From the NCBI GenBank assembly GCA_000004985.1, contig GG738887.1: 64,000 nucleotides of DNA, one strand, 5' to 3'. Below, piece after piece: positions 8,700-62,810 of the stretch (position 1 is its first letter; the number at the start of each line of letters is the position of its first letter). A program made the position numbers and the translations under genes. The DNA comes from Naegleria gruberi (lineage: Eukaryota). The notes under the pieces are model-generated. The model saw nothing but the letters and a program-made list of their open reading frames with translations. It had not been told where the DNA came from and made no database searches.

Positions 8700-8968
8700 T
8701 TATCATTTCACGGATTATTTAATTTCCTCTTTTTTAATTAATAAATTATCATATGAGATTGTAATTGAGTTCTGGAATGACACTAATATAGTATTTCTAC
8801 AAAATAATGGTTGTATTGTTGTTCAACTTTGACATCCTTACTTAAGGTAATCTGTCATAAACTTGAGACCTTCTTCGTTAGCCTTATTTCTTTGCCTATG
8901 TCTTCCAGTATTGTTTATTGGTTTATGGTTATAAATACTATTCTTCTTAATTAAAAATGCTAAATGAT

Positions 8969-9054
8969 CCGATGAGACGGAATCGAACCGCCGACCACAG
9001 GATGACAGTGTTCCTTGCTACAGTCCCATGCTCTACCAGCTGAGCTATCATCGG
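8969..9054 (-). tRNA. tRNA-Tyr(GUA): tRNA-Tyr (GUA) with a 14-nt intron after position 37
   Basis: minus strand CCGATGATAGCTCAGCTGGTAGAGCATGGGACTGTAG[caaggaacactgtc]ATCCTGTGGTCGGCGGTTCGATTCCGTCTCATCGG; cloverleaf with 7-bp acceptor stem, GTA anticodon and TTCGATTCC T-loop; the intron sits at the canonical eukaryotic tRNA-Tyr position; a T-run (Pol III terminator) lies downstream. Confidence 0.88.
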
Positions 9055-32726: not shown

Positions 32727-35700
32727 ATGTGTAAGTAATTAACAACCCTAACATCAGTCATTAATCACCCAATAATCAAATAATCCATCCTGTTGATTAG
32801 CAAGTGATATTAAAGGAACATTGACCAAGATTAAAGGTGGTAGTGTTCAAAATCGTTTGGCAGCCATTGGTGCTTTATTTTCTTTAGCATCAGATGATGA
32901 TATTAGAGAGGAAATTAGAAATATGGGAGGAATTGGTACTCTTGTTGGATGTTTAGAGGATAATTCTGATCCACGTATTCCTAGACAAGCCTGTGGTGCT
33001 CTCTTGTAAGTTTTTTATTACCAACTAATTTACTTACATAATAATTATTTAATATTATAATTATAATAATTATTAATTGAATGATGATTGTTTATTTATA
33101 TTATATCTATCTAGAAACATGGCAAATGATGATCAATGTAGAGAGGAAATTCGTGATTATGGTGGTGTTGAATTGATGCTCAAGCTTATTGAAAATCAAT
33201 TCAAAGATGCAACCAGTGTTGAATATGCTACAGGTGCCTTGCTAAATTTGAGCTCTGACGATGACACTAGAGAAATGGTTAGAGAAGCTGATGGTGCTCG
33301 TATTTTGGCTCGTTGCTTGTCTGATGCTCCAAGTGAAGAATCTAGAAGAAACTCTGTTGGTGCCATTGCTCAATTGTGCTTTGATCAAGAATTTACTAAA
33401 CAATTGGTTTCTGGAGATGCTTTGAAACACATTGTTGAATGTTTAAACTCAAGTGATGAAGAAACCAGAAACAGGACCTCAGGTTGTATCTGGAATTTGA
33501 GTGTTACTGCTGATGAAACTAGAGAAGCTTTGGCTCGTGAAGGTTGTTTGGAAAGTTTGGTCAATTTATTGCAAAAAAGTGAGGATGTTAATGAAGATCC
33601 TGAAACTGTTGGTAATTGTGTAATGTAAGTTTTATATAATTATATAGAAATATTCTAATTTTAACATTTTACAATAATTACTATTGCACTACATTATATT
33701 GTCAAATGTATGATGTTTAAACAGGTGTCTTTCAATTTTAAGTTCAAATGACATGGTTGCTGAAACTTTACGTGAAATGGACGGATGTTTCGAAATGATT
33801 ATTAAATTATTGAGTAATTCTGATTCTACTATTGCTCAAAATGCTGCGGCTGCCGTTTGGAATTTGGCTCACAATGATGATAACAAGAAGGTTTTGGCCA
33901 ATTTGGACACAATGGCATCTTTGATTCCACTTTTGGATTCTTTCAACTCTGCTTCCGATTGGGAAGCTTTGGAAAAAGTTTTGGGTGCTGTTTTAACTAG
34001 CAGTACCAATGACAATATGGCTGATCAATTCCGTGAAAATTCTGGATTTGGTCCACTCAAGACAATCATTGAAGGCAAGGTTGATCCAACCACTATTCAA
34101 AATGACCAACATAAGAAGTGTGTATTATATGGTATTATTGGATTTGCCGTTTTGGCTTACAATGATAAGAATAAGGATGAGATTCGTGAATGTGGAGCTA
34201 TTGCTGACTTGATTGAATTACTTTCTTTGGAGTATGATGACGATTTACTTGAAAAGGTTACTGCAGCCATTTTGAACTTGACTCACAATATTGAAAATAG
34301 AACAGCCATTCGTAAGCTTGACGGTATTTCAGTTCTTATTGAGCTTCTCTACCATCACAATGAAACCATCTCAATGAACTCTGCTGGTTGTTTGTGGAAT
34401 TTGAGTAACGACGAGGCTTGTAAAGCAGTTATTCGATCTTTGGGTGGTTTAAAGCCATTGTTAGCTTTGATTGGAGGTGGCAAGGTTGAACCACGTTCAA
34501 AGAAGGACAGAAAGATTTCAAAGGAAGCTATTGAAGCTGCCAATCGTCTTGTTGAAGGTGAAGAAGAAGAATCTGAACCAGTTCCAGAAGAAAAATTCGA
34601 TGTTATGGAATTTGTTGAAGACATCTTCAATCCAAAGAAGGACTTTGAAAAGTTGGACGATGAGGATGGATCTTCTGATAAGAAGAAACCTCAAGTCAAC
34701 AGAAATGGTGAACAAAGAACCACTACTGGTGCTGGTGTTGAATATGGTGAAGAAACTGGCATGACTCCTGCCAAGATCATTGTTGGTGCTGCTCGTATCG
34801 ATATTAAGAACAGAAGAAAGGTTGCAGAGGCCGAACGTGAAAAGAAGGAGGCAGAAGAAAGAGAAGCCAGAAGAAAGGAACGTGAAGAAAGAGAACGTGA
34901 AAGAAAACGTAAGGAAGAAGAAGAAAAGAAGAGAAAGGAAGAGGAGGAAAAGAAGAGACAAAAGGAAGAGGAGGAGAGAAAGAAGAAACTTGAAGCCGAA
35001 ATGAAAAAGAAGGCTGAAGAGGAAGCTGAAAAGGAAAGACTCCGTTTGCTTGCTGAAGCTGAACAAACAAAGAATCAACTTAAGGAAGCTTTCAATGCCA
35101 AACACAAGAGAAAGGGTGTTAAGGATGAAGACATTGATTGGGATGAAATCTATGAAGATGGATTCACTCCTTCTGCTACTAAGGATGAAGCCAAGGACAA
35201 GTTGGAAGGTCAAATTGATGAATATTCCAATCTCATTGACCCATTCAATAATAATGGTGTTTATGATCAACTCACTCCTGATGATATCAAATTCATTGAA
35301 AGTGAAATTGAAAGAGCTAAACGTTTCCTCGCTGAAAATCCAAATGCTACCAAGGAACAAATTGATGATGCCAGAAGAGAACTTGATGCCAATGTCAAAC
35401 CAATCATTGAAAGAGCTAAGGCCAGAAAGGTTCTTGGCGACATGACCACCAGCATCAGAGATCGTCTCTTGAATGACTCTGAATTGTTGAACAATTTGAC
35501 TCCTGAAGAAAGAAAGGAATTAGAACAAGCTGTTGCTGAAATGGAACAATGGTTACGTGACCATCCAGATGCTACCAAGGAAGAAATTGAAGAAAAGGAA
35601 CGTGAATTGCTTGCCAAGATTAAGCCAATTTTGGCTCGTGCTGCTACCAGAAATGATTTGGAAAATTATGCTCATGATTTGAGAAAGAAGGCAGCCAATG

Positions 35701-38700
35701 AAGATGATGACATTGATTTTGACTTGTTGGGTGATGAAGATAAGGGTACTTTCCATGATGCTATCAAGGAAATTGAAGATTTCTTACTTGAACATCCAAA
35801 TGCCTCTGCTCAAGATATTGAGGACAAGAAGGATGAAGTCAAGAGGCGCATTGATCCAATCATTAAGAAGGCCAAGGCCAAGAAGGATCTCTTACAATAT
35901 GCTGCTGACATGAGAGATAGATTGAACAATGATCATGATTTGAAGAAGAGACTCACTCCAGAAGAAAAGAGATCTATTGAAACTGCTTTGGATGACTTTG
36001 ACAAGTGGATTAAAAACCATCCAAATGCTGATGCTGAAAGCTTGAACAAGCAAAAACAAAGACTCAAACAAAAGTTGGATCCAATCGTTTCCAGAGCTGA
36101 TGCTCACAACAACTTGGACGAATACATCAACAGAACAAGAAAGAGAATTGATGATAATGATGATTTGGGTGAATTGTTGGATGATGCTGACAAGAGAACT
36201 CTTCAAAAGGAATTGAAGGATGCTGAAGAATTCTTGAAGAAGGTCGAAAAGGAACCAGTCAAATTCACTGCTGAAGAAATCGACAACAAGAAGAAGGAAA
36301 TCAAGGAAAAGCTTGCCCCTCTTATTGAAAAGGCTGAAAAGAGAAGAGAACTCAAGGACTATGCCAGCCAAATTCGTGACATTGCAAGCAATGATAATGA
36401 ACTTGCTGAATTTATCACACCAAAGGAAAGAAAGTTGCTCGAAAATGAGGCTAAGGAACTTTCTGACTGGGTAAAAAACAATAAGAAGGCCACTCCTCAA
36501 CAAGTTGAAGAGAGAAGAAAGAAGGCTGAAGAAAAGGTTCAACCAATCTTGGATAATGCCAATCAAAGAAAGGCTCTCAAGGAAACTGTTCAAAGATTGA
36601 GAGATCGTTTGAATGATGACAAGTATGTCGAAAAGTTGAAACCAGAAGAAAAGAAGGCTCTCAAGGATGCTGCTGATGAATTGGCCAACTTTTTGGCTAA
36701 GAATCCAGAAGCTTCTGCCAAGGAAATTGAACAACAAAGAGAAAAGACCAATGAAAAGGTTCTTCCAATCTTGGACAGAGTTAGAGAACAAATCTCACTC
36801 GAAAATCATGTTAACAATGTTAGAGATAAGGTTAGAGATGATCCAGCATTGAACAAATTCTTATCTGATAAGGAGAAGAAGGCCATTGAAAAGGCTGCTC
36901 AAGATGTTGAAAAAGTCCTTGCTAGTAAACCATCCATTAAGGATACCAAGAAGGCAAGAGAAGATTTCAATGATGCTGTCAAGCCTCTCCTTGAAAATGC
37001 TGCTGCTAGATCTAAACTTGCAATCTATGGTGATAAGGTTTTGGATGATGTCTTGTCTGATCCACATACAAGTGATAAGGATAAGGAAGCTGTCAAGAAG
37101 GCAAAGAAGGAATTGATTGATGACTTTTTGGCTAAGAATCCAGATGCCACTAAGGAACAACTTGATCAACAAAGAAAGAAGTTCGATGAAGCTGTTGCTC
37201 CAATCACTGATCGTATTAATAAGAAGAAGGAATTGGAAAGAAAGATCAATGATATCAAGAGAAAGTTGGATGATCCAGATTCTGCAATCTGTTCAAAGGC
37301 AACCCCAGAAGAAAGACAATATTTGGCCTCAAAGGTTGATGAATTGTCTAAATTCTTGAAGGAAAATCCAAATGCCTCTGCTAAACAATTGGAAGAAAAG
37401 ATTAACGAATTCAACTCTCAAGTCGAACCAATTGCCAAGACATGCGAAAAGAGAGACCAATTAGAAAAGCAAGCAAACACTATCAGAGACAGATTAGTTG
37501 ATCCAAATGACGATCTCAACAAGTATATGAGTGAATCTGAGAAGACTCAACTCAGAGACGCTACCAATGAAGCTCTTCGTTTCTTGGAAAAGAATCCATC
37601 TTGCTCATCCTCAGAAGTTGCTCAAGCCAAGAAGAAATTGGACGATAAGACCAAGGAATTGGTTGAAAAGGCCAAGGCTAAGGGTGGTTTGTATAAGAGA
37701 GCTGGTGGACTTCTTTCTGATGTTAACAATTATGGTGAAGGCGGTCTTGGAGGTAAATTGAACAGTGTTGAAAAGAGCGAAATTGCTGATAAATGCAATG
37801 ATATCATCAATCACTTGAACAAGAATCCAAACCTCTCAACCAAGCAAATCAAGGAAAAGGAGAAGGAACTCAACAAGGTTGTTGCTCCAATTCTTGATAA
37901 GATCAGAGAAAGAGACAATCTCCGTGAAATTATTAATGGTATTCGTGATCAAATCTTCAATATTGATGATAAACTTGAAGATGACAAGTCAGATGCTTCC
38001 TCTGATTCTGACAGTGATCGTGAAGATTTGGAAGATTTATTGGATGGACCAATCAAGAAGTCTAAGGCTCAAAGAGATGAAAAGGGTAAGACCGACAAGT
38101 TGGGTAACTTCTTGTCCAACGAGGAAAAGAAGAAGATTGACGAAACTACCAAACAAGCATTGCAAGCTATTGATTCTGATCCAAATCTTTCAGTCTCTGA
38201 CTTGAAGGAACAAGCAAGAAACCTCAAGCAAGACACTGAAAATATCTTGAAGGCTGCCAAGACCAGATCTGATCTCAACGACTATTTGAATAACATTCGT
38301 GAACAAGTCAAGGATGAAGATGGTATGATTGCTAATCACTTGAGTGAAAAGGATAAGAAGTTGATTGATGAAACTATTAATGAAGCACTCAACTGGTTGA
38401 ATAAGGAAGGTGCTAATGCTACACCAGAAGCCGTTGAAAAGAAGAAGAAACAAGTTATGGACAAGATTGATCCAGTCATTCGTAATGCCAAGCAAAGAGG
38501 TGAATTGGAATCAATTGCTAACAAGGTTAAGCAACGTTTAGAAGATGATGTTGATTTGACATCAGCTCTCAGTGAAAAGGACAAGAAGGCATTACATGAT
38601 GAAGTTCAAGAAATTCTTGATTTCTTGAAGAAGAATCCTAATGCTACTCCTGAACAAATTCAACAAAAGAAGAAGCAATTCGAGGAAAGAGTTCTTCCAA

Positions 38701-40871
38701 TTCTTGAAAAGGCTGAAGCCAGAAACAAGTTGAAGGATTTGACCAATGAACTCCGTACCAGACTCTATGATGAAGATGATCTTGGAAACAAGCTCAGTGA
38801 AGCTGATAAGAAGAAGGTTGAAAAGTTGATTGATGAAGCTGTTGACTTTTTGGAAACTAATCCAGATGCTTCAAAGGAAAAGATTGATCAAAAGAGACAT
38901 GCTTTGGAATCCAATGTCATGCCAATTATCAAGAAGGCTGAAAAGGCCAAGAAGGCTGCTGACTATGCATCTGCAATTAGAGACAATTTGGAAAATGATT
39001 CTCTCCTTAAGGATGCTCTCACTCAAGAAGAAAAGAAATTGATTGATACTCACACCAAGGATTTGCTTGACTGGATTGAAAAGAATGCAGCCACTGCTAC
39101 TTCTAATGAAATTAGTGATAAGGAAAGACAATGTAAGGAAAAGGTTGATCCAATCCTCAATAAGGCCAAGGCAAGAAATGCTCTCAAGGAAGATATTGAA
39201 AAGTTGTATGAAAAGTTGAATGATGAAAACAAGCACAAGTTCTCTGAAAAGGAAAAGAAGGCCATTCTCGATGAAATCAATAAGGCCAATGACTACCTTG
39301 ATACAGTTGCCAAGAATCCAAATACCACTTCTGATGATATTGAAAAGAAGAGAAACGAATTGAAGATTGCCACTCAACCATTGGTTCAAAAGGCCAAACA
39401 AAGAAAGGAATTGCAAGAATATGCTGCAGGTGTTCGTGATAAACTCCAAAATGATAGCAAGCTCACCTCTCGTATGACTCCAGAAGAAAAGAAGACCCTT
39501 GATAATGCTGCTAAGGAAGCTCTTGACTGGGTCAACAAACATGGTGATGATGCCTCATTGAATGATTTGAAGGAAAAGTTGCGTCAAACTAAAGCTAAGG
39601 TTGAAGCTACTATGCAACGTGCTGAGAAACATCAAAAGTTGGAAGATATGGCCAACAAGATCAAGGATAAGGTTGAAGGTGATTTGAAGGACTGCATGTC
39701 TTCAGAAGAAAAGAAGACTGTTCTCCAAGAAGTTCAAAAGACTCTCGATTGGTTGAACAAGAATAAGACTGCTCCAATTGGTGAAGTTGAAGCTCAACAA
39801 AGAGCTCTCGAAAATAAGATTGCTCCAATTATGGAAAAGGCTCAAACCAAGAAGGATTTGGCTGACTTTGCTAATACTGTTAGAGACAGATTGAAGAATG
39901 ATAAGGAACTTGCCAGTCTCTTGTCAGCTGAAGAAAAGAAGGCCATCAATGATGCTGTCCAAGAAACTCTTGATTGGTTGAACAAGAATCCAAATGCTTC
40001 TCTTGCTGAGTTGAAGGATAGAAAGAAGAAATTGGAAGATGTTGTTAACAATGTTCTTGGTGATAAGGAAGCTGCTGAAAACTTTAGAAATTATGCTGAA
40101 AAGGTTTTGGAAGTCTTGAAGAAGAATAAGCAAGTTCAAAAGGACTTGACTGATGAAGAAAAGCGTGCCATTCAAGACTTTGCTGAAGAAGCCAGAGATT
40201 GGTTATTAGAAAATCCAAATGCCACTGCCAGACAAATCAGAATGGAAAAGAAGAGATTGGAAGAAAAGTTGGGCAAGATTAAGAAATTCAAATTTGAAAT
40301 TCCTGCCACTCACTACATTGGTAACTTCTCAGAACGTACCAGATGGGGTGATGACAGTAAGCGTACCAAAGATATCAACTCATTATTGGGTTCATACATT
40401 AAGAAGGGTGACAAGGTTGCTACTACTCCTGTCAAGCCAACAGCCACCTCTACTCCAACAAAGACTCCACAAAGAAATTTGAAACCAGTTGCCACTCCAA
40501 AGAAGCTCACCAAGGAAGAAGAAGAAGAAATGAAATTGTTCGATACCATGAAGTTCAATAAGGGTGGTTTGATTCAAGCTAAATTACAAAGTCTCATGGG
40601 AAGTGTTGGCTCTGCAAGTGCTGTCAGCGGTTCAGTTGTTGAAGAAGAAGAAGAACCAGCTGTTGTTTATCCATACTCTGAATTGAAGAATAACAAGCAA
40701 AAGAAGTATCCATCAGGTATTGACATTAACAAGAGAGAACAATACTTGAGCAATGATGAATTCCAACAAATTTTCAAGATGTCTCGTGATGAATTCAAAA
40801 ACTTGCCAGAATTCAGACAAACCAAATTGAAGAGAGATGCTGAATTATTTGCCTATGCTTATGAACTTTAA
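32727..40871 (+). CDS. giant (~2,600 aa) multidomain protein: armadillo repeats, then an E/K/R-rich single-alpha-helix segment, then ~22 tandem Hsp70-lid-like helical repeats, then a C-terminal villin headpiece (VHP) domain
   Basis: exons 32727..32730 (ATG+T), 32801..33005, 33115..33624, 33725..40871 (introns 70, 109 and 100 nt, all GTAAGT...AG with continuous frames); ARM units (GALLNLSSDDD..., AVWNLAHNDDN...); charged block 34795..35060; repeats 35190..40290; C-terminus 'YLSNDEFQQIFKMSRDEFKNLPEFRQTKLKRDAELF' is a VHP. Confidence 0.7.
35190..40290 (+). repeat. in-frame tandem array of ~22 diverged ~72-75-aa coding repeats (Hsp70 SBD-alpha lid-like unit)
   Basis: each unit follows ...[R/K]xxLxxYAxxxRxxLxxDxxLxxxLxxEEKKxIxxAxxExxxWLxxNPNA[ST]xxExxxKxKELxxxxxPIxxKA...; it aligns column by column with human HSPA8 '[72 protein letters not shown]'. 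Confidence 0.7.
40731..40868 (+). other. villin-headpiece (VHP) F-actin-binding domain at the C-terminus of the giant protein
   Basis: 'LSNDEFQQIFKMSRDEFKNLPEFRQTKLKRDAELF' versus the villin HP '[35 protein letters not shown]'. Confidence 0.75.
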
Positions 40872-50846: not shown

Positions 50847-51915
50847 TGTGTAGAGCTGCACTGTTGATTATGTTGTTTTGTTTTTTTGAAGTGGGGTGAA
50901 ATTTGGCGATAATAAGCGTTTGGTTTCATTGTGTTTTTACATGACAGTTATCTCCAAAAGAGAACAACAAACCACAAAAGCATAAATTGTAAAGAGCAGT
51001 GAAGTTAGCTGGAAAGAATTTGGAAGGTGGATGAATTAACAGATGAACGTACGAATGGTTCATAACAAGTGGCAACTACAGTTCAACCAGCCCTTCTACA
51101 GACTATTTCATTGTATCATCTTCCTTCTTTCTTCTAATTATGCTTGTTGCCATTCGTGCAAGAGCACATGCATTCCATCGTTCCAATCAATGTTTCATCA
51201 ATATTATCCGAAAATTATAATATGTAATATAATAATACTCTCCATGATATTCCTCCATCAAGTCATCATATTAAATAATATTAAAATAATAAATATAATT
51301 TTTCTTTCCGATTTAATTTCACTCATAAAATTCATGGCAATTTCCCTTATTCCACTTTCCATATATTTCCCAGAACACAAATCTTTCCAACACCAACCAA
51401 TACCTGACCACCACTGAAACAATCTCAAAGATGATGAACCTATTAGTGATGATATCATCACAGTTCCATCACAAACTCGCTTCAAAAAAATAGCGCGAAA
51501 ACTCAAAGCCTTTTCTCTCCATTTTTTAGGCTTGTTTTTTGTCTAAGCCTACTTGCCTGTTGTTCTCTATAGTTCTAAGCAGACAAGGAAACAAGCCTTC
51601 CTCATTGATTACAAAGCATAACTATTGACAAATATACAAACACACGGTCCAATTTAAGGTCGTTACGATATAAAAGGAATGCGCTAGAGTTCAACAAGAC
51701 TAAAAAACAAACTCAAAAAAAACAAATCAATTAATTGCATTGCACTTTTTGCTCTCAAAGTTCACATATTGAGATTTAACAAGGCTTTGAAATTTATATT
51801 CCCTATATTCATCATCATCATTAATCTATTATATTGGCACATAGACGAAACGTTTCGGTAAGTAATTATGCAATATTATCCAACTCATTGATTGCTTCCT
51901 ATATGATAAAGAAAG

Positions 51916-58109: not shown

Positions 58110-60236
58110 TTAAAAGCTCTTCAAAGAGGATTCCATCAAGTTTTGCAATCTATTGACCATTGATCTTGGATCATCCAATAAACCGGCACTGATGAGAGCA
58201 TTATCAAAGATTTGTTCAGCAACAAGCTTGGCCAAATCTGGATTAGCTGACTTGGCATTGAAGAGTTTCATGATGAGTGGATGGCGAGGATTGATTTCAA
58301 CTTGTTGTGGAGAGAGGGCAATATCTTGATTTTGCAATTTACGAATCATTCTGAGGGAGGCATTTTCTGGATTCTTAATGACAGCTGGAGTTGTTGAGAG
58401 ACGCTTAGAGATCTTGGCAGATGAAACCTTATCCTTCAATGAGGTTTGGAACCATTCACACAATTCCTTAGATTGAATTTCAGAGAGTTCATTTTCACCA
58501 GATGTCTTGTCAGCTTCATCATCTTCCAATTCAGCTCTATCAATGGCCTTAGTTTCCTTACCATTGAAATAACCAATTGAACCAAAGACAAAGTCATCAG
58601 GTCCATCATAACCGAACAAGACTTCGATACCCTTCTTCTTGAAAACTTCAAAGTATGGAGAGTTTTCGGCATATTCTCTAGTTGGAGCAATGAGGTAGTA
58701 AATTGTCTTTTGTTCAGTTCCCATTCTGTTAATATATTCTTCCAATGTTGTCTTTTCACCCTTTGGTAAGGCAGATGATTCGTACATGAGCAATTTGGCA
58801 GCTTCATCCTTATACATGTAATCAGTGACAACACCTTCCTTAATGAACTTGTTGAACTTTTCATAGAAACTAATGTACTTTTCACGATCTTGCTTCATCA
58901 TGTCATTGAAGAATTTGGTAATTCTCTTAACGAGGACAGATTTAATCTTTTGAATGAGTGGAGAATCTTGCAAGTGTTCTCTGGAAATGTTCAATGGTAA
59001 ATCTTCAGAGTCAACAACACCCTTCAAGAATCTCAACCAATCTGGGAGAATATCTGGATGCTTGGCACGAATCAAAACTCTTCTACTGTGAACATTGACA
59101 CCAGGTTCCATCTTACCCATACCCAATGATTCAGTGTGGTGATCTGGGACGTAGAACAAGGCATTCATATTCAATGGAATATCCAAGTTAAAGTGGAGAA
59201 TATAGAGTGGGTTTCCACCATAGTGTGAAAGATACTTGTAGAATTCTTGATGTTCTTCAGCAGTGACAGAGTTCTTGCTCTTCAACCAGACAGCATCAAG
59301 AGTATTGACCTTGGCACCGTTCAAAATGATTGGATAAGAGACAAAGTTACTGTACTTTTGAATAATCTTTTGAACAGTATCCTTGAAAGAGAATTCCTTT
59401 TCATTCTTCTTCAAATAAATGACAATCTTTGTACCTCTGGCAACTCCTTCAGCTTCGGAAATTGTGTAATTTCCTTCACCAGTACTTTCCCAACAATATC
59501 CAGGTTGACCTTTGATAGCAGATCTAGTATAAATACGGACCTTATCAGCAACCATGAATGTACTGTAAAAACCAACACCAAATTGACCAATAATGTTGGA
59601 TGTAGCTTCACCCTTATCGGAAGCTTCCTTAAGTTGTTTAACAAAGGCACGAGAACCACTGTGAGCAATAGTACCAATATTCTTGATTAATTCTTCCTTG
59701 GACATACCAATACCAGAGTCTTGAATGACGAAAATATTATTCTTATCATCACAAGAAATTTGGACAGATAATTCCTTTGAAGGATCATCAACCTTGTCTG
59801 GTGAAACTTGATTCATTCTTCTAACCTTTTCCAAAGCATCGGAAGCATTTGAAATTAATTCTCTGATGAAGACTTCCTTGTCAGTATAGAGAGCAGAAGC
59901 AACAATGTGTAAAAGTTGTTTAGTTTCAGTTTCAAAAGTCTTATTTTCCTTGGCACCAACAATGTGTTCAGTTTCTCTAATAATATTTTCTTCCTTGAGT
60001 TCATTGACTTCGGCATCCTCAAAAACATCATCATCAATAACATCCTTCTTTTCATTTCTAACAAATAGTTGTGATGAGAAATTAGCAATCAATTGTTGTT
60101 GTTGTTGATATGATGAACAAGAATTCTTTGAAAGAACGGAAGAAGAAGATGGCAATGCTGATGATGAACATCTCACAGCAGCAGAACGCTTTGAGACGAG
60201 CGAACGGACGATTTTACCAGAGTTTCTGCTCAACAT
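58110..60236 (-). CDS. TRAP1: TRAP1, mitochondrial Hsp90-family chaperone
   Basis: 709 aa from the ATG at 60236; N-terminal presequence (MLSRNSGKIVRSLVSKRSAAVR); Hsp90 ATPase signatures 'ELISNASDALEK' and 'IGQFGVGFYSTFMVADKV'; no C-terminal MEEVD. Confidence 0.85.
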   Translation of the reverse strand: MLSRNSGKIVRSLVSKRSAAVRCSSSALPSSSSVLSKNSCSSYQQQQQLIANFSSQLFVRNEKKDVIDDDVFEDAEVNELKEENIIRETEHIVGAKENKTFETETKQLLHIVASALYTDKEVFIRELISNASDALEKVRRMNQVSPDKVDDPSKELSVQISCDDKNNIFVIQDSGIGMSKEELIKNIGTIAHSGSRAFVKQLKEASDKGEATSNIIGQFGVGFYSTFMVADKVRIYTRSAIKGQPGYCWESTGEGNYTISEAEGVARGTKIVIYLKKNEKEFSFKDTVQKIIQKYSNFVSYPIILNGAKVNTLDAVWLKSKNSVTAEEHQEFYKYLSHYGGNPLYILHFNLDIPLNMNALFYVPDHHTESLGMGKMEPGVNVHSRRVLIRAKHPDILPDWLRFLKGVVDSEDLPLNISREHLQDSPLIQKIKSVLVKRITKFFNDMMKQDREKYISFYEKFNKFIKEGVVTDYMYKDEAAKLLMYESSALPKGEKTTLEEYINRMGTEQKTIYYLIAPTREYAENSPYFEVFKKKGIEVLFGYDGPDDFVFGSIGYFNGKETKAIDRAELEDDEADKTSGENELSEIQSKELCEWFQTSLKDKVSSAKISKRLSTTPAVIKNPENASLRMIRKLQNQDIALSPQQVEINPRHPLIMKLFNAKSANPDLAKLVAEQIFDNALISAGLLDDPRSMVNRLQNLMESSLKSF

Positions 60237-60981
60237 TTTTTTTTCAATCAAAAACTGAAGCTATTGATTGAAGATGGAACGGAAAGTGTTGTGCTTCCGA
60301 TCCAGAGCCATGTTTGCTTTCTTAATTGCTATTAAATGGAATAAGAAATTCCGATTAGTATTAATGAAAGTAGGTTGGGATTTTAAATTGATTGAGGGAG
60401 GTTGAATGATATATTTATTTGCTACTGATTGAGGAAGCACAGTTAGAAAACAATAGAGTTCTTCCTTAATATAATCAGTAACATTGAAAAGATACTATTG
60501 TTAATTCAAACAAGGAACATAAATTTCAAAGCTCAACTGAAACATCCTTTTAGTTAAATGAAGTTATTGCTAAGTGAGGTCTTCAACTTGAAATGAGATA
60601 TATTGTGTGGGTTTAACATAAAGGAATGGTTTCATTATCTTCCCCATGATCTGGAGATTATTCAATAGACCTGTTAAAGAGATCAAATCTCCATAATAAG
60701 ATCCAGAATCTTAAAGATGAAAATTCCGCTTCCTATCCAGATTTTCCGCACAACCACACAATCACAATCTTTGTTATCATTCTCACCTCAGCAGAAGTAA
60801 CAACAAATCATCAACTGTACCTCAGCAGTAACAAGAAAAACCATTTGAAAAAAAAATTGTTTAAGGTCGTGCTCGTCATTATTGTGCATGAAGAAAGTGG
60901 CCATTGTATTGTCATGTTGGTGGCTCTTGTTCATCGCTTGGAATTGCATGCACGAGTGGCTAGTATGGAAGATAACTGTTC

Positions 60982-61338
60982 ATGGCCAGCAACTCGTTGT
61001 ACCAAGGTTTGAATGTTCGTGATGCTAATGGTCGTGTGATACGTTCATTGGGACCTGAGACTGCAGTTACTGTCTATGGTATTATGGTTAAGGATGGAGG
61101 AAGATGGGCAAAGATTGGAACCAATGAATATGTTTCTGCTGATTATTTAAAAATGTCATGTGGATGTGGTGGAGGATACAATAATCAAGATCCAACACTA
61201 CCAGATAAGCTTCAATCACCCAAGCAAAAACTGGTGTACCGCCACTGGTTTCAGTCTGTGTTAACTTTTCCGCCACTTACTTCGGATACATCCCAACATC
61301 AGTCCGCCACAGGCAATAAGCAAGAATCGCTACACTAG
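60982..61338 (+). CDS. ORF with a bacterial-type SH3b-like domain ('LNVRDANGRVIRSLGPETAVTVYGIMVKDGGRWAKIGTNEYVSADYLK') inside a GC-richer (~45-48% GC) island
   Basis: ATG-initiated 118-aa ORF; a 45-aa signal-peptide-like ORF (MKKVAIVLSCWWLLFIAWNC..., ATG 60888) lies just upstream in another frame; composition differs from the flanks. Confidence 0.35.
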   Translation: MASNSLYQGLNVRDANGRVIRSLGPETAVTVYGIMVKDGGRWAKIGTNEYVSADYLKMSCGCGGGYNNQDPTLPDKLQSPKQKLVYRHWFQSVLTFPPLTSDTSQHQSATGNKQESLH

Positions 61339-61999
61339 TTTTTAATATGACATTTCAATCAAAAAATCAAATGGTTTATTACATATTGACATGTGACATT
61401 AATCCAAACAAGATTATTTCAACATTCAAAATTCAATCAATAATTGAATGAAATTTATCTCATTTGTAAATAAACAATCGTTTCCCAGTAGCAACATAAC
61501 AATATCCAGTTATTTCATCAATTGTTAATCCAATAATGTCACTACCAACGACTTTCGAATTGATTTTTTTGCATTTGCTAGAAAGTTGAATGAAAGACAC
61601 AGAGAAGGTTATAAGAAATGGGGTGGTAAGTATCGTATGTATTTATTCGTGAATTTTTTGTTCGATTCCATACGAATTGTTTCAATTTTGCAAAGTATGA
61701 TAATATTTAGACTCCAATTTGATTGAATCAAAATTCTCGAACTTCATTGTAAAACAAATCCTATGTACTTGAAGAAAATCTCAAAAAAGAAAGTATTATT
61801 TCAGAAATTGGACATTTTGGATTTCCCATTTTGTTGATTTACCATTTAAGTAGGTTGAGTTAGACCAATTTAAACAAATCAATGTGAAACTATACCCAAT
61901 CAAAAACAATCAAAACAAATTGATATAATTCAATCACGCTTTTCAAACTAACTTTCCAATCAACTTATCAACTCTCCAACTCTAACTCTATACGAAACC

Positions 62000-62449
62000 A
62001 TGAAAAAGATACTCTTCATAGTCCTTGTATGCATCTTGGCTGCTCTCTTCTTGAATGCTGATAAGGCAGATGGTCAATTGACATACAGCTATCGTTATGC
62101 CTACAGCTACCCTTCCACCTATGGTTACTCATATCCATCTAGTTACGGATACGGCTATCCTTCAACCTATGGTTACTCATATCCATATAGTTACGGATAT
62201 GGCTACCCTTCAACCTACGGATACGGCTACCCTTCAACCTACGGATACTCATATCCATCCTCCTATAGCTATCGTTACGCCTACAGCTACCCTTCCACCT
62301 ATGGTTACTCATATCCTTATAGTTACGGATACGGCTACCCTTCCACCTATGGTTACTCATATCCATCTAGTTATTCTTATGGTTATCCTTACTCATATGG
62401 TGGCTATGGATATCCTTCTTCATATGCTTATTCATACAGATATTGGTAA
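62000..62449 (+). CDS. secreted Tyr/Gly/Ser/Pro-rich tandem-repeat protein (YGYSYPSS / YGYGYPST octapeptide repeats)
   Basis: signal peptide MKKILFIVLVCILAALFLNA, then ~16 octapeptide repeats with a higher-order ~180-nt duplication (YRYAYSYPSTYGYSYP... occurs twice); ends YRYW*. Confidence 0.55.
   Translation: MKKILFIVLVCILAALFLNADKADGQLTYSYRYAYSYPSTYGYSYPSSYGYGYPSTYGYSYPYSYGYGYPSTYGYGYPSTYGYSYPSSYSYRYAYSYPSTYGYSYPYSYGYGYPSTYGYSYPSSYSYGYPYSYGGYGYPSSYAYSYRYW
62080..62440 (+). repeat. 24/48-nt coding tandem repeat with a higher-order ~180-nt unit
   Basis: recurring 'tacccttccacctatggttactcatatcc...' and 'agttacggatacggctaccc' DNA units. Confidence 0.6.
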
Positions 62450-62810
62450 GAAATCAATTAATTGTAAATCTATAATAAAAATGTAACACTTTGAAAGAGT
62501 TTATTGTAATTTTGATGGAAAGAACCACCCAAAACATCACCAATCAAACTAAAATCACTTGAGAAAGCTTGGCATCTGTTACGAAGGAGTCCTTTAGAAA
62601 TCAAATCAGTTTTTCCATGACTCAATCGAGAATGAAGTATTTGTTGAAAACGAAACTGTTCCGAAGAGACTGAGAAGGAAAGAACACATACGTGTGAAAA
62701 ACAACTGACACCAAAAGGTCAAAACACTTCATTGCAAGACAGGAACAGTTTTGATGAAACAAATTAACAATTTTTGTAAATTTAATAAAAATGTTTATTT
62801 ACAACACAAT

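What the first reader, a model, noticed from the sequence alone, without database searches (positions are those of the whole stretch)
62000..62449. Secreted Tyr-rich octapeptide-repeat protein, a candidate extracellular matrix or cross-linkable structural protein
A signal peptide is followed by almost pure repeats of YGYSYPSS / YGYGYPST, which are ~45% Tyr, with a higher-order duplication of a ~60-aa block. Tyr/Gly/Pro-rich secreted repeats are characteristic of dityrosine-cross-linked structural proteins such as cyst, spore or stalk wall, cuticle and eggshell components. The DNA repeat is near-perfect, which suggests a recent or concerted expansion and a likely hotspot for length polymorphism.
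Basis: seen in the sequence. Interest (0 to 1): 0.55.

Follow-up and report, generated by a model that had tools for sequence, protein, structure and literature searches.

The report
Unannotated secreted tyrosine-repeat protein, Naegleria
A small, previously unannotated gene of the amoeba Naegleria gruberi encodes a secreted protein that is 40% tyrosine; it is probably a self-assembling, cross-linkable wall or coat material like those other organisms evolved independently, but its role is untested.

Summary
The ORF is real: window 62000-62449 (+), 149 aa, in a Naegleria gruberi scaffold. It has a canonical signal peptide followed by 12-13 octads Y-[GSA]-Y-[GS]-Y-P-[SY]-[ST]. The mature part is 40% Tyr, with no Cys or acidic residues. 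A 60-aa higher-order duplication exists.

The DNA repeat is not near-perfect. Units are 61-75% identical and the two 60-aa blocks about 88-90%. Between the blocks dS=0.43, dN=0.04 and dN/dS=0.10 in the Tyr frame only; the other open frames give about 10 or no synonymous changes. The frame is therefore under purifying selection and the duplication is old.

The protein is absent from public protein sets and has no true homologue among 1.8 billion representatives, Pfam, NCBIfam or PDB. It sits at a synteny breakpoint, with no counterpart next to TRAP1 in N. fowleri or Willaertia.

Best reading: a secreted, disordered Tyr-rich structural protein, plausibly cross-linked in the cyst wall, whose composition is unknown. 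Expression, localisation and cross-linking are untested. It is a new orphan member of a known, convergent kind, of moderate interest.

The parts
62000..62449 (+). Complete single-exon coding sequence, 149 codons plus TAA, for the secreted Tyr-rich repeat protein. It is unannotated in public protein sets.
   Evidence: ORF listing and sequence. An in-frame stop lies 51 nt upstream at 61949. The exact sequence is absent from the 15-billion-protein collection and its gene-position index. No near-identical hit was found.
62000..62074 (+). Signal peptide, residues 1-25. The n-region is MKK, the h-region is I4-L17 and the c-region is NADKADG. Candidate cleavage sites are LNA|DK (after residue 20, nt 62059) or ADG|QL (after residue 25).
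   Evidence: The Kyte-Doolittle 9-mer peak is 3.87, and both sites fit the (-3,-1) rule. Only the target and TRAP-beta pass a strict signal-like rule among 113 ATG ORFs, and 0 of 74 short ORFs pass. AlphaFold2 predicts a confident helix for residues 2-30 with pLDDT about 90. SignalP itself was not available.
62084..62263 (+). Repeat block A, residues 29-88: YSYR-YAYSYPST followed by YGY[SG]YP[SY][ST] octads.
62264..62443 (+). Repeat block B, residues 89-148. It is a duplicate of block A at 180-nt spacing. The first 127-129 nt are 88-90% identical to block A, and the last third has diverged (YSYGYPYSYGGYGYPSSYAYSYRY).
   Evidence: the repeat finder family D1. Codon comparison gives 8 synonymous and 4 non-synonymous differing codons. 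NG86 gives dS 0.434, dN 0.042 and ratio 0.096.
62474..62479 (+). AATAAA hexamer 25 nt after the stop codon, a possible polyadenylation signal. Its use in Naegleria was not verified.
   Evidence: Sequence and position.

Best explanation
This is a genuine, single-exon, so far unannotated gene of Naegleria gruberi.

Shown by sequence:
- The product enters the secretory pathway through a cleavable N-terminal signal peptide.
- The mature protein is about 14.7 kDa, basic (pI about 8.6) and made of 12-13 octads Y-x-Y-x-Y-P-x-x.
- It has no Cys, no acidic residues and essentially no Lys. Tyr, at 40%, is therefore the only abundant side chain available for the usual covalent protein cross-links. Ser/Thr next to Pro are possible O-glycosylation sites.

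Inferred:
- The repeat domain is intrinsically disordered in isolation.
- Outside the cell it self-associates through its one-sided Tyr faces. The YxYxY segments are broken by P-S-S/T.
- It is then fixed by oxidative Tyr chemistry. This could be peroxidase-type di- or isodityrosine at the 38 YxY motifs, or DOPA/quinone tanning. The result is an insoluble structural layer.
- In Naegleria the most plausible destination is the cyst wall, whose composition is unknown. A trophozoite surface coat or adhesive is the main alternative location.
For: Gene reality:
- The ORF has an ATG, and an in-frame stop lies 51 nt upstream.
- The N-terminus is signal-peptide-like by a rule that otherwise picks only TRAP-beta among 113 ORFs.
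- 60% of codon differences among the 12 units are synonymous, against 22% expected.
- Between the 60-aa blocks dN/dS is 0.096 in the Tyr frame. It is 9.7 in the +1 ORF, and the antisense ORF shows 0 synonymous and 11 non-synonymous changes. Fisher p = 1.1e-4.
- Codon choice is shifted towards C-ending codons: TAC 48% vs 29% and ACC 86% vs 20%.
- An AATAAA hexamer lies 25 nt after the stop.

Disorder: AlphaFold2 pLDDT is about 33 over residues 34-149.

Composition.

Analogy to structural materials:
- The Nilaparvata lugens protein AA0383 has a signal peptide and YGYGYPY repeats, with 39/113 Tyr. It is an oviduct-specific abundant transcript, interpreted as material secreted at oviposition (PMC2311293).
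- Eimeria GAM56/GAM82/EtSWP1 are secreted, disordered, Tyr(+Ser)-rich, cross-linked wall proteins without BLAST-detectable homologues (PMC4776368).

The composition of the Naegleria cyst wall is reported as 'not clear' (PMC9430148).
Against: - There is no transcript, proteomic or localisation evidence of any kind.
- The protein is in no public protein set, including sets derived from sequencing-run assemblies.
- No orthologue was found in other heteroloboseans, either in protein searches or next to TRAP1. If it is a cyst wall component, it is not a conserved one.
- The literature search found nothing linking Naegleria to dityrosine, and the presence of a suitable peroxidase or tyrosinase was not examined.
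- The signal peptide was judged by heuristics, not by SignalP.
- The selection test rests on only 13 substitutions between two blocks.
- The function is inferred entirely from convergent analogues.
Confidence: 0.45

Rival explanations
1. It is a secreted adhesive, surface-coat or coacervating material of trophozoites, used for example for substrate attachment or prey capture. In this reading it is not a cyst wall component, and Tyr-mediated cohesion acts with or without covalent cross-links.
For: The sequence features are the same as for the best explanation. The planthopper analogue is a secreted coating or glue-like material, not a cell wall. The protein is basic and aromatic-rich and ends in YW, like small Gly/Tyr-rich marine adhesive proteins (own knowledge, not tested).
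Against: Nothing discriminates the stage or location of expression. No DOPA-forming enzyme was examined. Lys, which is typical of many bio-adhesives, is absent from the mature protein.
Confidence: 0.2
2. It is a precursor of secreted bioactive (antimicrobial or signalling) Tyr-rich peptides. The three Arg residues sit at the block boundaries, in YSYR at residues 29-32, 89-92 and 144-147. Cleavage after them would release two peptides of about 55-60 aa.
For: The Arg positions coincide exactly with the 60-aa periodicity, and the mature net charge is +3. The protein is small and secreted. Nematode Gly/Tyr-rich defence peptides are a precedent (own knowledge), and a Necator look-alike exists.
Against: There are no dibasic or otherwise recognisable processing sites. 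Gly is only 14%, against the Gly-dominated GGY peptides. The Arg periodicity follows trivially from the block duplication. Coccidian structural precursors are also processed, so processing would not separate this rival from the best explanation.
Confidence: 0.12
3. It is not a gene. In this reading it is a degenerate minisatellite whose repeat unit lacks stop codons, so that an ORF with a hydrophobic start arises by chance.
For: Other frames are also open across the repeat: a 129-aa ORF in the +1 frame and a 75-aa antisense ORF. The ORF is absent from the JGI gene set and from all protein collections. There is no orthologue.
Against: Substitutions between copies are strongly synonymous-biased in the Tyr frame only, with dN/dS 0.096 against 9.7 or no synonymous changes elsewhere and p = 1e-4. 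Of 15 base differences between the blocks, 10 are at third positions, p = 0.0085. The signal-like N-terminus lies outside the repeat, and 0 of 74 short ORFs in the window have such a start. Gene finders commonly miss small repetitive ORFs (own knowledge).
Confidence: 0.08

Closest known systems
Nilaparvata lugens (brown planthopper) lateral-oviduct protein AA0383/OC2756 (PMC2311293)
   Same: It is a small secreted protein of 113 aa, against 149 aa here. A signal peptide is followed by almost pure Y-x-Y-x-Y-P repeats. Tyr is 43% of the mature part, against 40% here. It has no annotated domain and is interpreted as a structural material.
   Different: Its repeat period is 7 (YGYGYPY/YSYGYPY), not 8. 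It is Gly-rich where the target is Ser-rich, and neutral where the target is basic. The organism is an insect. Masked BLASTP finds nothing. The unmasked alignment (45% identity, E = 1e-27) is driven by composition and needs 20% gaps. This is convergence, not homology.
Coccidian tyrosine-rich wall proteins: Eimeria GAM56/GAM82, EtSWP1 and T. gondii TrOWP (PMC4776368, PMC8531782)
   Same: They have a signal peptide and intrinsic disorder. In GAM56/82 the Tyr is concentrated together with Ser. They are orphan-like, with no BLAST homologues beyond close species. TrOWP contains the motif YPGYGYGYPGYGYG. The walls are protist resting-stage walls, cross-linked through Tyr and showing blue UV autofluorescence.
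   Different: They are larger proteins in which the Tyr-rich part is one region among acidic or other regions. EtSWP1 is only 7.1% Tyr. They have no octapeptide array. There is no sequence relationship. In Naegleria, localisation, processing and cross-linking are all untested.
Bacterial sulfur globule envelope proteins (SgpA/B/C) and unnamed small bacterial secreted YGY[SG]YPS-repeat proteins (P0097, P0016, P0070 and the P0010 family)
   Same: They are small, exported through a Sec signal peptide, and repetitive with regularly spaced Pro. [quoted passage not shown] Metagenomic proteins carry near-identical motifs such as YGYSYPSYGYSYPSY. UniRef names a Necator look-alike 'Sulfur globule protein CV3 domain protein'.
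   Different: No profile match links the target or the look-alikes to any Pfam or NCBIfam family, even at E <= 10. The biological context, a periplasmic sulfur globule envelope, is different. The similarity is compositional.
Plant extensins / hydroxyproline-rich glycoproteins (own knowledge, not tested with tools)
   Same: They are secreted, extended, repetitive wall proteins. Their Tyr-X-Tyr motifs are cross-linked by peroxidases into isodityrosine and higher oligomers. The target has 38 overlapping YxY motifs, with Ser/Thr/Pro between them.
   Different: The target has no Ser-Pro(3-5) blocks. Its Pro residues are single, at 10%. There is no homology.

Membership tests
Classical secretory (signal-peptide) proteins | Tripartite N-terminal signal: a positive n-region, a hydrophobic h-region of 7-15 residues, and a polar c-region with small residues at -1 and -3 | tested here: met
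   MKK / ILFIVLVCILAALFL / NADKADG. The candidate sites are LNA|D and ADG|Q. A strict rule is passed only by the target and TRAP-beta among 113 ORFs. This is a heuristic; SignalP was not available.
Classical secretory (signal-peptide) proteins | No further membrane anchor (transmembrane segment or hydrophobic GPI-signal tail) | tested here: met
   The hydropathy of every 9-mer window starting at residues 16-30 is negative, and the mature part has GRAVY -1.04. The C-terminus is ...YAYSYRYW.
Coccidian tyrosine-rich oocyst/sporocyst wall proteins (GAM56, GAM82, EtSWP1, TrOWP) | Signal peptide plus an intrinsically disordered protein with a Tyr-rich (often Ser-rich) region | tested here: met
   Signal peptide. 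pLDDT is about 33 over the repeats. The mature part is 40% Tyr and 23% Ser. The class features are taken from PMC4776368.
Coccidian tyrosine-rich oocyst/sporocyst wall proteins (GAM56, GAM82, EtSWP1, TrOWP) | Sequence relationship to a family member | tested here: not met
   Neither the word-indexed search nor the exhaustive search returned any apicomplexan relative, only low-complexity matches. The shared YGYGYP motif is compositional.
Coccidian tyrosine-rich oocyst/sporocyst wall proteins (GAM56, GAM82, EtSWP1, TrOWP) | Stage-specific expression, localisation in the wall, and dityrosine/DOPA cross-links with blue UV autofluorescence | not testable with these tools
   No Naegleria expression, proteomic or biochemical data were accessible. 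The literature search for Naegleria plus dityrosine found nothing relevant.
Sulfur globule proteins (Sgp / 'CV3 domain') | Match to a family profile, and a periplasmic envelope protein of sulfur-storing bacteria | tested here: not met
   There were 0 Pfam families at E <= 10. The only NCBIfam match was a spurious serine-rich hit at 11.6 bits against a cut-off of 650. The organism is a eukaryotic amoeba.
Plant extensins | Ser-(Hyp)3-5 repeats together with YxY cross-link motifs | tested here: not met
   YxY motifs are abundant, with 38 overlapping. However, there are no consecutive prolines anywhere in the sequence.
Nematode Gly/Tyr-rich defence peptides (NLP/CNC type; features from own knowledge) | Gly-dominated GGY/YGG repeats with basic processing sites | tested here: not met
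   Gly is 14% against Tyr at 40%. There is only one GG. There are three isolated Arg residues and no dibasic site.

The most novel reading that the evidence does not exclude
This orphan gene encodes the first molecularly identified structural protein of the Naegleria cyst wall (or of another extracellular layer). It would be a 40%-Tyr octad-repeat polymer hardened by oxidative tyrosine cross-linking. That would mean a heterolobosean independently arrived at the same wall chemistry as coccidian oocysts and insect egg coatings, using a lineage-specific gene that genome annotation missed.
Probability: 0.25. Interest if true: 0.6.

Novelty: new member of a known kind. Interest (0 to 1): 0.35.

Why it matters
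The cyst wall is what makes Naegleria, including the lethal N. fowleri, resistant in the environment. Its composition is described as unclear and no structural wall protein is known.

A concrete, testable candidate would open that question to tagging, antibody work and cross-link chemistry. Tyr is essentially the only side chain in this protein available for the usual covalent protein cross-links.

The finding also illustrates two general points:
- Small low-complexity secreted genes are systematically missed by annotation.
- The Y-x-Y-x-Y-P repeat grammar has arisen repeatedly in secreted proteins of insects, nematodes, apicomplexans, bacteria and now a heterolobosean. This suggests a shared physical solution for building insoluble extracellular layers.

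The caveat is that the gene appears specific to N. gruberi, at least at this locus. Direct relevance to N. fowleri is therefore doubtful.

Tried and rejected
- Exact look-up of the protein in the 15-billion-protein collection and in its gene-position index: absent.
- Word-indexed homology search and exhaustive phmmer over 1.84 billion representatives: only low-complexity or 8-residue-period matches. The best hit (E = 1.4e-21) is an unrelated MPMSIGFT repeat. These were rejected as homologues.
- Pfam, NCBIfam and PDB sequence searches at E <= 10 or E <= 1: nothing.
- JGI metagenome scan with back-translated peptides: 600 pattern matches, none confirmed.
- Synteny: TRAP1 orthologue loci from N. 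fowleri (3), Willaertia magna, an unnamed heterolobosean contig and an N. gruberi-like metagenome contig were scanned in six frames. No Tyr-rich ORF was found. tblastn showed that only the far side of TRAP1 is syntenic, so absence there is weak evidence.
- AlphaFold2 on the single sequence: no fold for the repeats. No fold search was attempted because the model is low-confidence.
- Masked BLASTP against the planthopper protein: no alignment. The unmasked alignment was judged compositional.
- Literature: Naegleria plus dityrosine gave nothing relevant. The search for the 1967 Werth and Kahn cyst wall analysis hit 'Wertheim' instead, a dead end.
- The sulfur-globule-protein lead from a UniRef name failed the profile test.
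- I considered whether the SH3-like ORF upstream (60982-61338) belongs to the same gene. I rejected this because an in-frame stop lies 51 nt upstream of the ATG and the target has its own signal peptide.
- My first look-ups of minus-strand neighbours (proteins 2 and 4) used coordinates that clipped the start codon. Their 'not in collection' result is therefore meaningless. The target's coordinates were correct.

Full report
**Where the window comes from**

The window is a 35% GC, gene-dense eukaryotic sequence with long ORFs and few introns. The 519-aa ORF at 24387-25943 is identical to XP_002673924 / NAEGRDRAFT_51300 of Naegleria gruberi, on a 508-kb scaffold. The finding therefore lies in the nuclear genome of the amoeboflagellate N. 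gruberi.

**Checking the observation**

The translation is MKKILFIVLVCILAALFLNADKADGQLT followed by repeats.

- Twelve units match Y[GSA]Y[GS]YP[SY][ST], and the YP dipeptide recurs every 8 residues. There is one 12-residue step and one 9-residue step.
- Tyr makes up 50 of 149 residues (33.6%), or 40% of the mature part. In 19 confident genes of the same window it is 3.5%.
- A higher-order duplication with a 180-nt (60-aa) period links 62084-62210 to 62264-62390 at 90% identity.

- The units are 37.5% Tyr, not about 45%.
- The DNA repeat is far from perfect. The 24-nt units are 61-75% identical (mean 69%). TRF reports 67-70% matches. The two 60-aa blocks lose register in their last third.

**Is it a gene or an open microsatellite?**

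ORF length alone says nothing here, because a 129-aa ORF in the +1 frame and a 75-aa antisense ORF also run across the repeat. Three independent lines point to the Tyr frame.

1. The N-terminus lies outside the repeat and has textbook signal-peptide anatomy.
   - The n-region is MKK. The hydrophobic core has 14-15 residues with a Kyte-Doolittle peak of 3.87. That is too short for a membrane anchor.
   - The polar c-region offers (-3,-1)-compatible sites after A20 or G25.
   - A deliberately strict rule for such a start is met by only 2 of 113 ATG ORFs of at least 60 aa in the window. These are the target and TRAP-beta, a real secretory-pathway protein. None of the 74 short, mostly spurious ORFs pass.
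   - AlphaFold2 models residues 2-30 as a confident helix.
2. The copies differ mainly at synonymous sites.
   - Among the 12 units, 194 of 321 differing codons (60%) are synonymous, against 22% expected for random single-base changes.
   - Between the two blocks, Nei-Gojobori estimates in the Tyr frame are dS 0.434 and dN 0.042, a ratio of 0.096.
   - The +1 ORF gives a ratio of 9.7, and the antisense ORF has 0 synonymous and 11 non-synonymous changes.
   - The site-level contrast has Fisher p = 1.1e-4. Ten of 15 base differences fall on third positions, p = 0.0085.
   - The sample is small, at 13 substitutions, but the contrast between frames is stark.
3. The gene context fits.
   - An in-frame stop lies 51 nt upstream.
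   - An AATAAA hexamer lies 25 nt after the stop, and about 360 bp separate the ORF from the convergent neighbour.
   - Codon choice is shifted towards C-ending codons relative to the window's genes. TAC is 48% against 29%, ACC 86% against 20% and GGC 28% against 8%.

I conclude, with roughly 0.8-0.9 confidence, that this is a real protein-coding gene. A dS of about 0.43 also shows that the 60-aa duplication is old and has not been homogenised.

**The gene is unannotated and has no homologue**

- The exact sequence is absent from a 15-billion-protein collection that does contain the N. gruberi proteome, and from the associated gene-position index.
- A word-indexed search and an exhaustive phmmer scan of 1.84 billion cluster representatives found no near-identical model and no heterolobosean relative.
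- All hits are proteins or spurious ORFs that share an 8-residue P-S-phased repeat or the YGYGYP motif.
- Pfam, NCBIfam and PDB sequences give nothing, even at permissive thresholds.
- A scan of JGI metagenome contigs confirmed no relative.

**Synteny**

The neighbouring TRAP1/HSP90 gene (58110-60251, minus strand) has orthologues in N. fowleri, Willaertia magna and an unnamed heterolobosean contig. I fetched up to 10 kb on each side of them.

- No Tyr-rich ORF occurs in any frame.
- tblastn shows that the far side of TRAP1 (the WD40 gene in all, TRAP-beta in Willaertia, the unnamed contig and the N. gruberi-like contig but not in N. fowleri) is syntenic. None of the ORFs on the target's side has a counterpart.
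- TRAP1 therefore sits at a synteny breakpoint, and the target lies in an N. gruberi-specific segment.
- This is weak evidence against orthologues elsewhere in those genomes, because I could not search them in full.

**Properties of the product**

After signal-peptide cleavage at G25, the protein has these properties:

- 124 aa, 14.7 kDa, pI 8.6 and GRAVY -1.04.
- 40% Tyr, 23% Ser, 14% Gly, 10% Pro and 6% Thr.
- No Cys, Asp, Glu or Lys.
- Three Arg residues at the block boundaries, in the motif YSYR at residues 29-32, 89-92 and 144-147.
- 38 overlapping Y-x-Y motifs and 17 [GS]Y[GS] motifs.
- No C-terminal hydrophobic tail, so no GPI-type anchor is expected.

AlphaFold2 on the single sequence gives pLDDT of about 33 across the repeats. 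That fits intrinsic disorder, or a structure that forms only on assembly.

**Mechanism**

The steps shown by sequence are ER targeting and the composition of the mature domain. Everything after that is inferred.

- The strict alternation of Tyr with tiny residues gives 5-residue segments with all Tyr on one face. P-S-S/T interrupts them every eighth residue.
- Such a chain should be cohesive through aromatic stacking and hydrogen bonding.
- Without Cys and Lys, Tyr is the only abundant residue available for the usual covalent protein cross-links. The likely routes are peroxidase-type di- or isodityrosine, or DOPA/quinone chemistry.
- Ser/Thr next to Pro could carry O-glycans. This is inference only.

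**Support from analogues**

- The brown planthopper gene AA0383/OC2756 encodes 113 aa, a signal peptide followed by YGYGYPY/YSYGYPY repeats, with 39/113 Tyr. It is among the most abundant ESTs and is specific to the lateral oviduct. It is interpreted as structural material secreted at oviposition (PMC2311293). Its period is 7, not 8. Masked BLASTP finds nothing. The unmasked alignment needs 20% gaps. This is convergence.
- Eimeria GAM56/GAM82/EtSWP1 define a class of secreted, disordered, Tyr(+Ser)-rich proteins. They are processed, built into resting-stage walls and associated with dityrosine and blue UV autofluorescence. They lack BLAST-detectable homologues outside close species (PMC4776368).
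- Small bacterial secreted proteins and a Necator protein carry near-identical motifs. UniRef names one Necator entry after sulfur globule protein CV3. Sulfur globule proteins are exported structural envelope proteins with regularly spaced Pro (PMC10386293). No profile links any of these to the target.

**Where it would act**

The cyst wall is, to my knowledge, the main elaborate extracellular structure Naegleria builds. Its composition is described as 'not clear' (PMC9430148). Few encystation molecules are known (PMC8063937). I found nothing in the literature connecting Naegleria with dityrosine. The cyst wall assignment is therefore a hypothesis. A trophozoite coat or adhesive is a serious alternative.

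**Rivals**

- A bioactive-peptide precursor is suggested by the Arg residues at block boundaries and the net charge of +3. However, there are no dibasic sites, Gly is low, and the Arg periodicity follows from the duplication itself.
- The non-gene reading is disfavoured by the frame-specific selection signal and the signal peptide.

**Verdict**

The ORF is very likely a real, secreted, unannotated orphan protein. Functionally it is best filed as a new, independently evolved member of the known kind 'secreted tyrosine-rich low-complexity structural proteins'. It is not a member of any homologous family.

Interest is moderate. The case is useful as a concrete candidate for an unknown wall chemistry and as an example of convergent repeat grammar. 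It has no expression or biochemical support, and the gene is apparently not conserved beyond N. gruberi.

Noticed in passing
window 60982-61338 (+): A 118-aa ORF lies between TRAP1 and the target. It shows a weak match to the bacterial SH3 domain (Pfam SH3_3, E = 7e-4, 20.2 bits, below the 27-bit cut-off). It is followed by a CGCGGGY segment. It has no counterpart near TRAP1 in other heteroloboseans. It could be a small lineage-specific or horizontally acquired gene, perhaps with an upstream exon.
   Followed up: partly
window 33753-40871 (+): A single 2,372-aa ORF has N-terminal armadillo repeats (Pfam Arm, E = 4e-20) and a C-terminal villin headpiece (VHP, E = 1e-13). Between them lie about 20 divergent helical repeats of about 95 aa, of the form '...LSxxEKKxIxxxxxExxxWLxxNPNAtxxEIexKkkELexKvxPIlxKAkxr...'. 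By eye these resemble the C-terminal lid of HSP70, but Pfam did not report that. There is no DNA-level tandem repeat, so the array is old.
   Followed up: partly
window 8968-9054 (-): Rfam finds a tRNA at 54.8 bits, but ARAGORN reports no tRNA in the whole window. The 87-nt span suggests an intron-containing or otherwise atypical tRNA gene.
   Followed up: no
window 58110-60251 (-) and loci L001-L005: TRAP1 marks a synteny breakpoint among heteroloboseans. TRAP-beta and the WD40 gene follow TRAP1 in N. gruberi, Willaertia and the unnamed contig L005. In N. fowleri TRAP-beta is missing from that position. The upstream side differs in every species.
   Followed up: partly
locus L006 (ENA ERZ929261, run ERR1078381, project PRJEB11402): A 4.2-kb metagenome contig carries TRAP1 and TRAP-beta genes 100% identical to this window, and a WD40 gene fragment 97% identical. 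N. gruberi-like DNA is therefore present in that environmental sample.
   Followed up: no
proteins P0003, P0010, P0011, P0017, P0007 (metagenomes; not in the window): This is a recurrent family of bacterial-looking secreted proteins. They have the signal peptide MKRIAAYLASAALGA...AWAQ and a YGYPSSYAYGYGYP-type Tyr repeat. An Ala-rich linker and a conserved Cys-containing C-terminal module (MCSTPVKACELYHASYIGNGCSCRV) follow. All are annotated as hypothetical. They may be an uncharacterised bacterial counterpart of Tyr-repeat coat proteins.
   Followed up: partly
window 24387-25946 (+): The secreted 519-aa 'predicted protein' NAEGRDRAFT_51300 contains a MACPF/perforin domain (Pfam E = 6.7e-9). 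It is a candidate pore-forming protein of the amoeba.
   Followed up: partly
window 22335-22508 (+) and 51178-51339 (-): Two other short stretches reach at least 25% Tyr in one translated frame (for example YFYYYYY). They look like TAT-rich low-complexity DNA, not genes, and are unrelated to the target's repeat.
   Followed up: no
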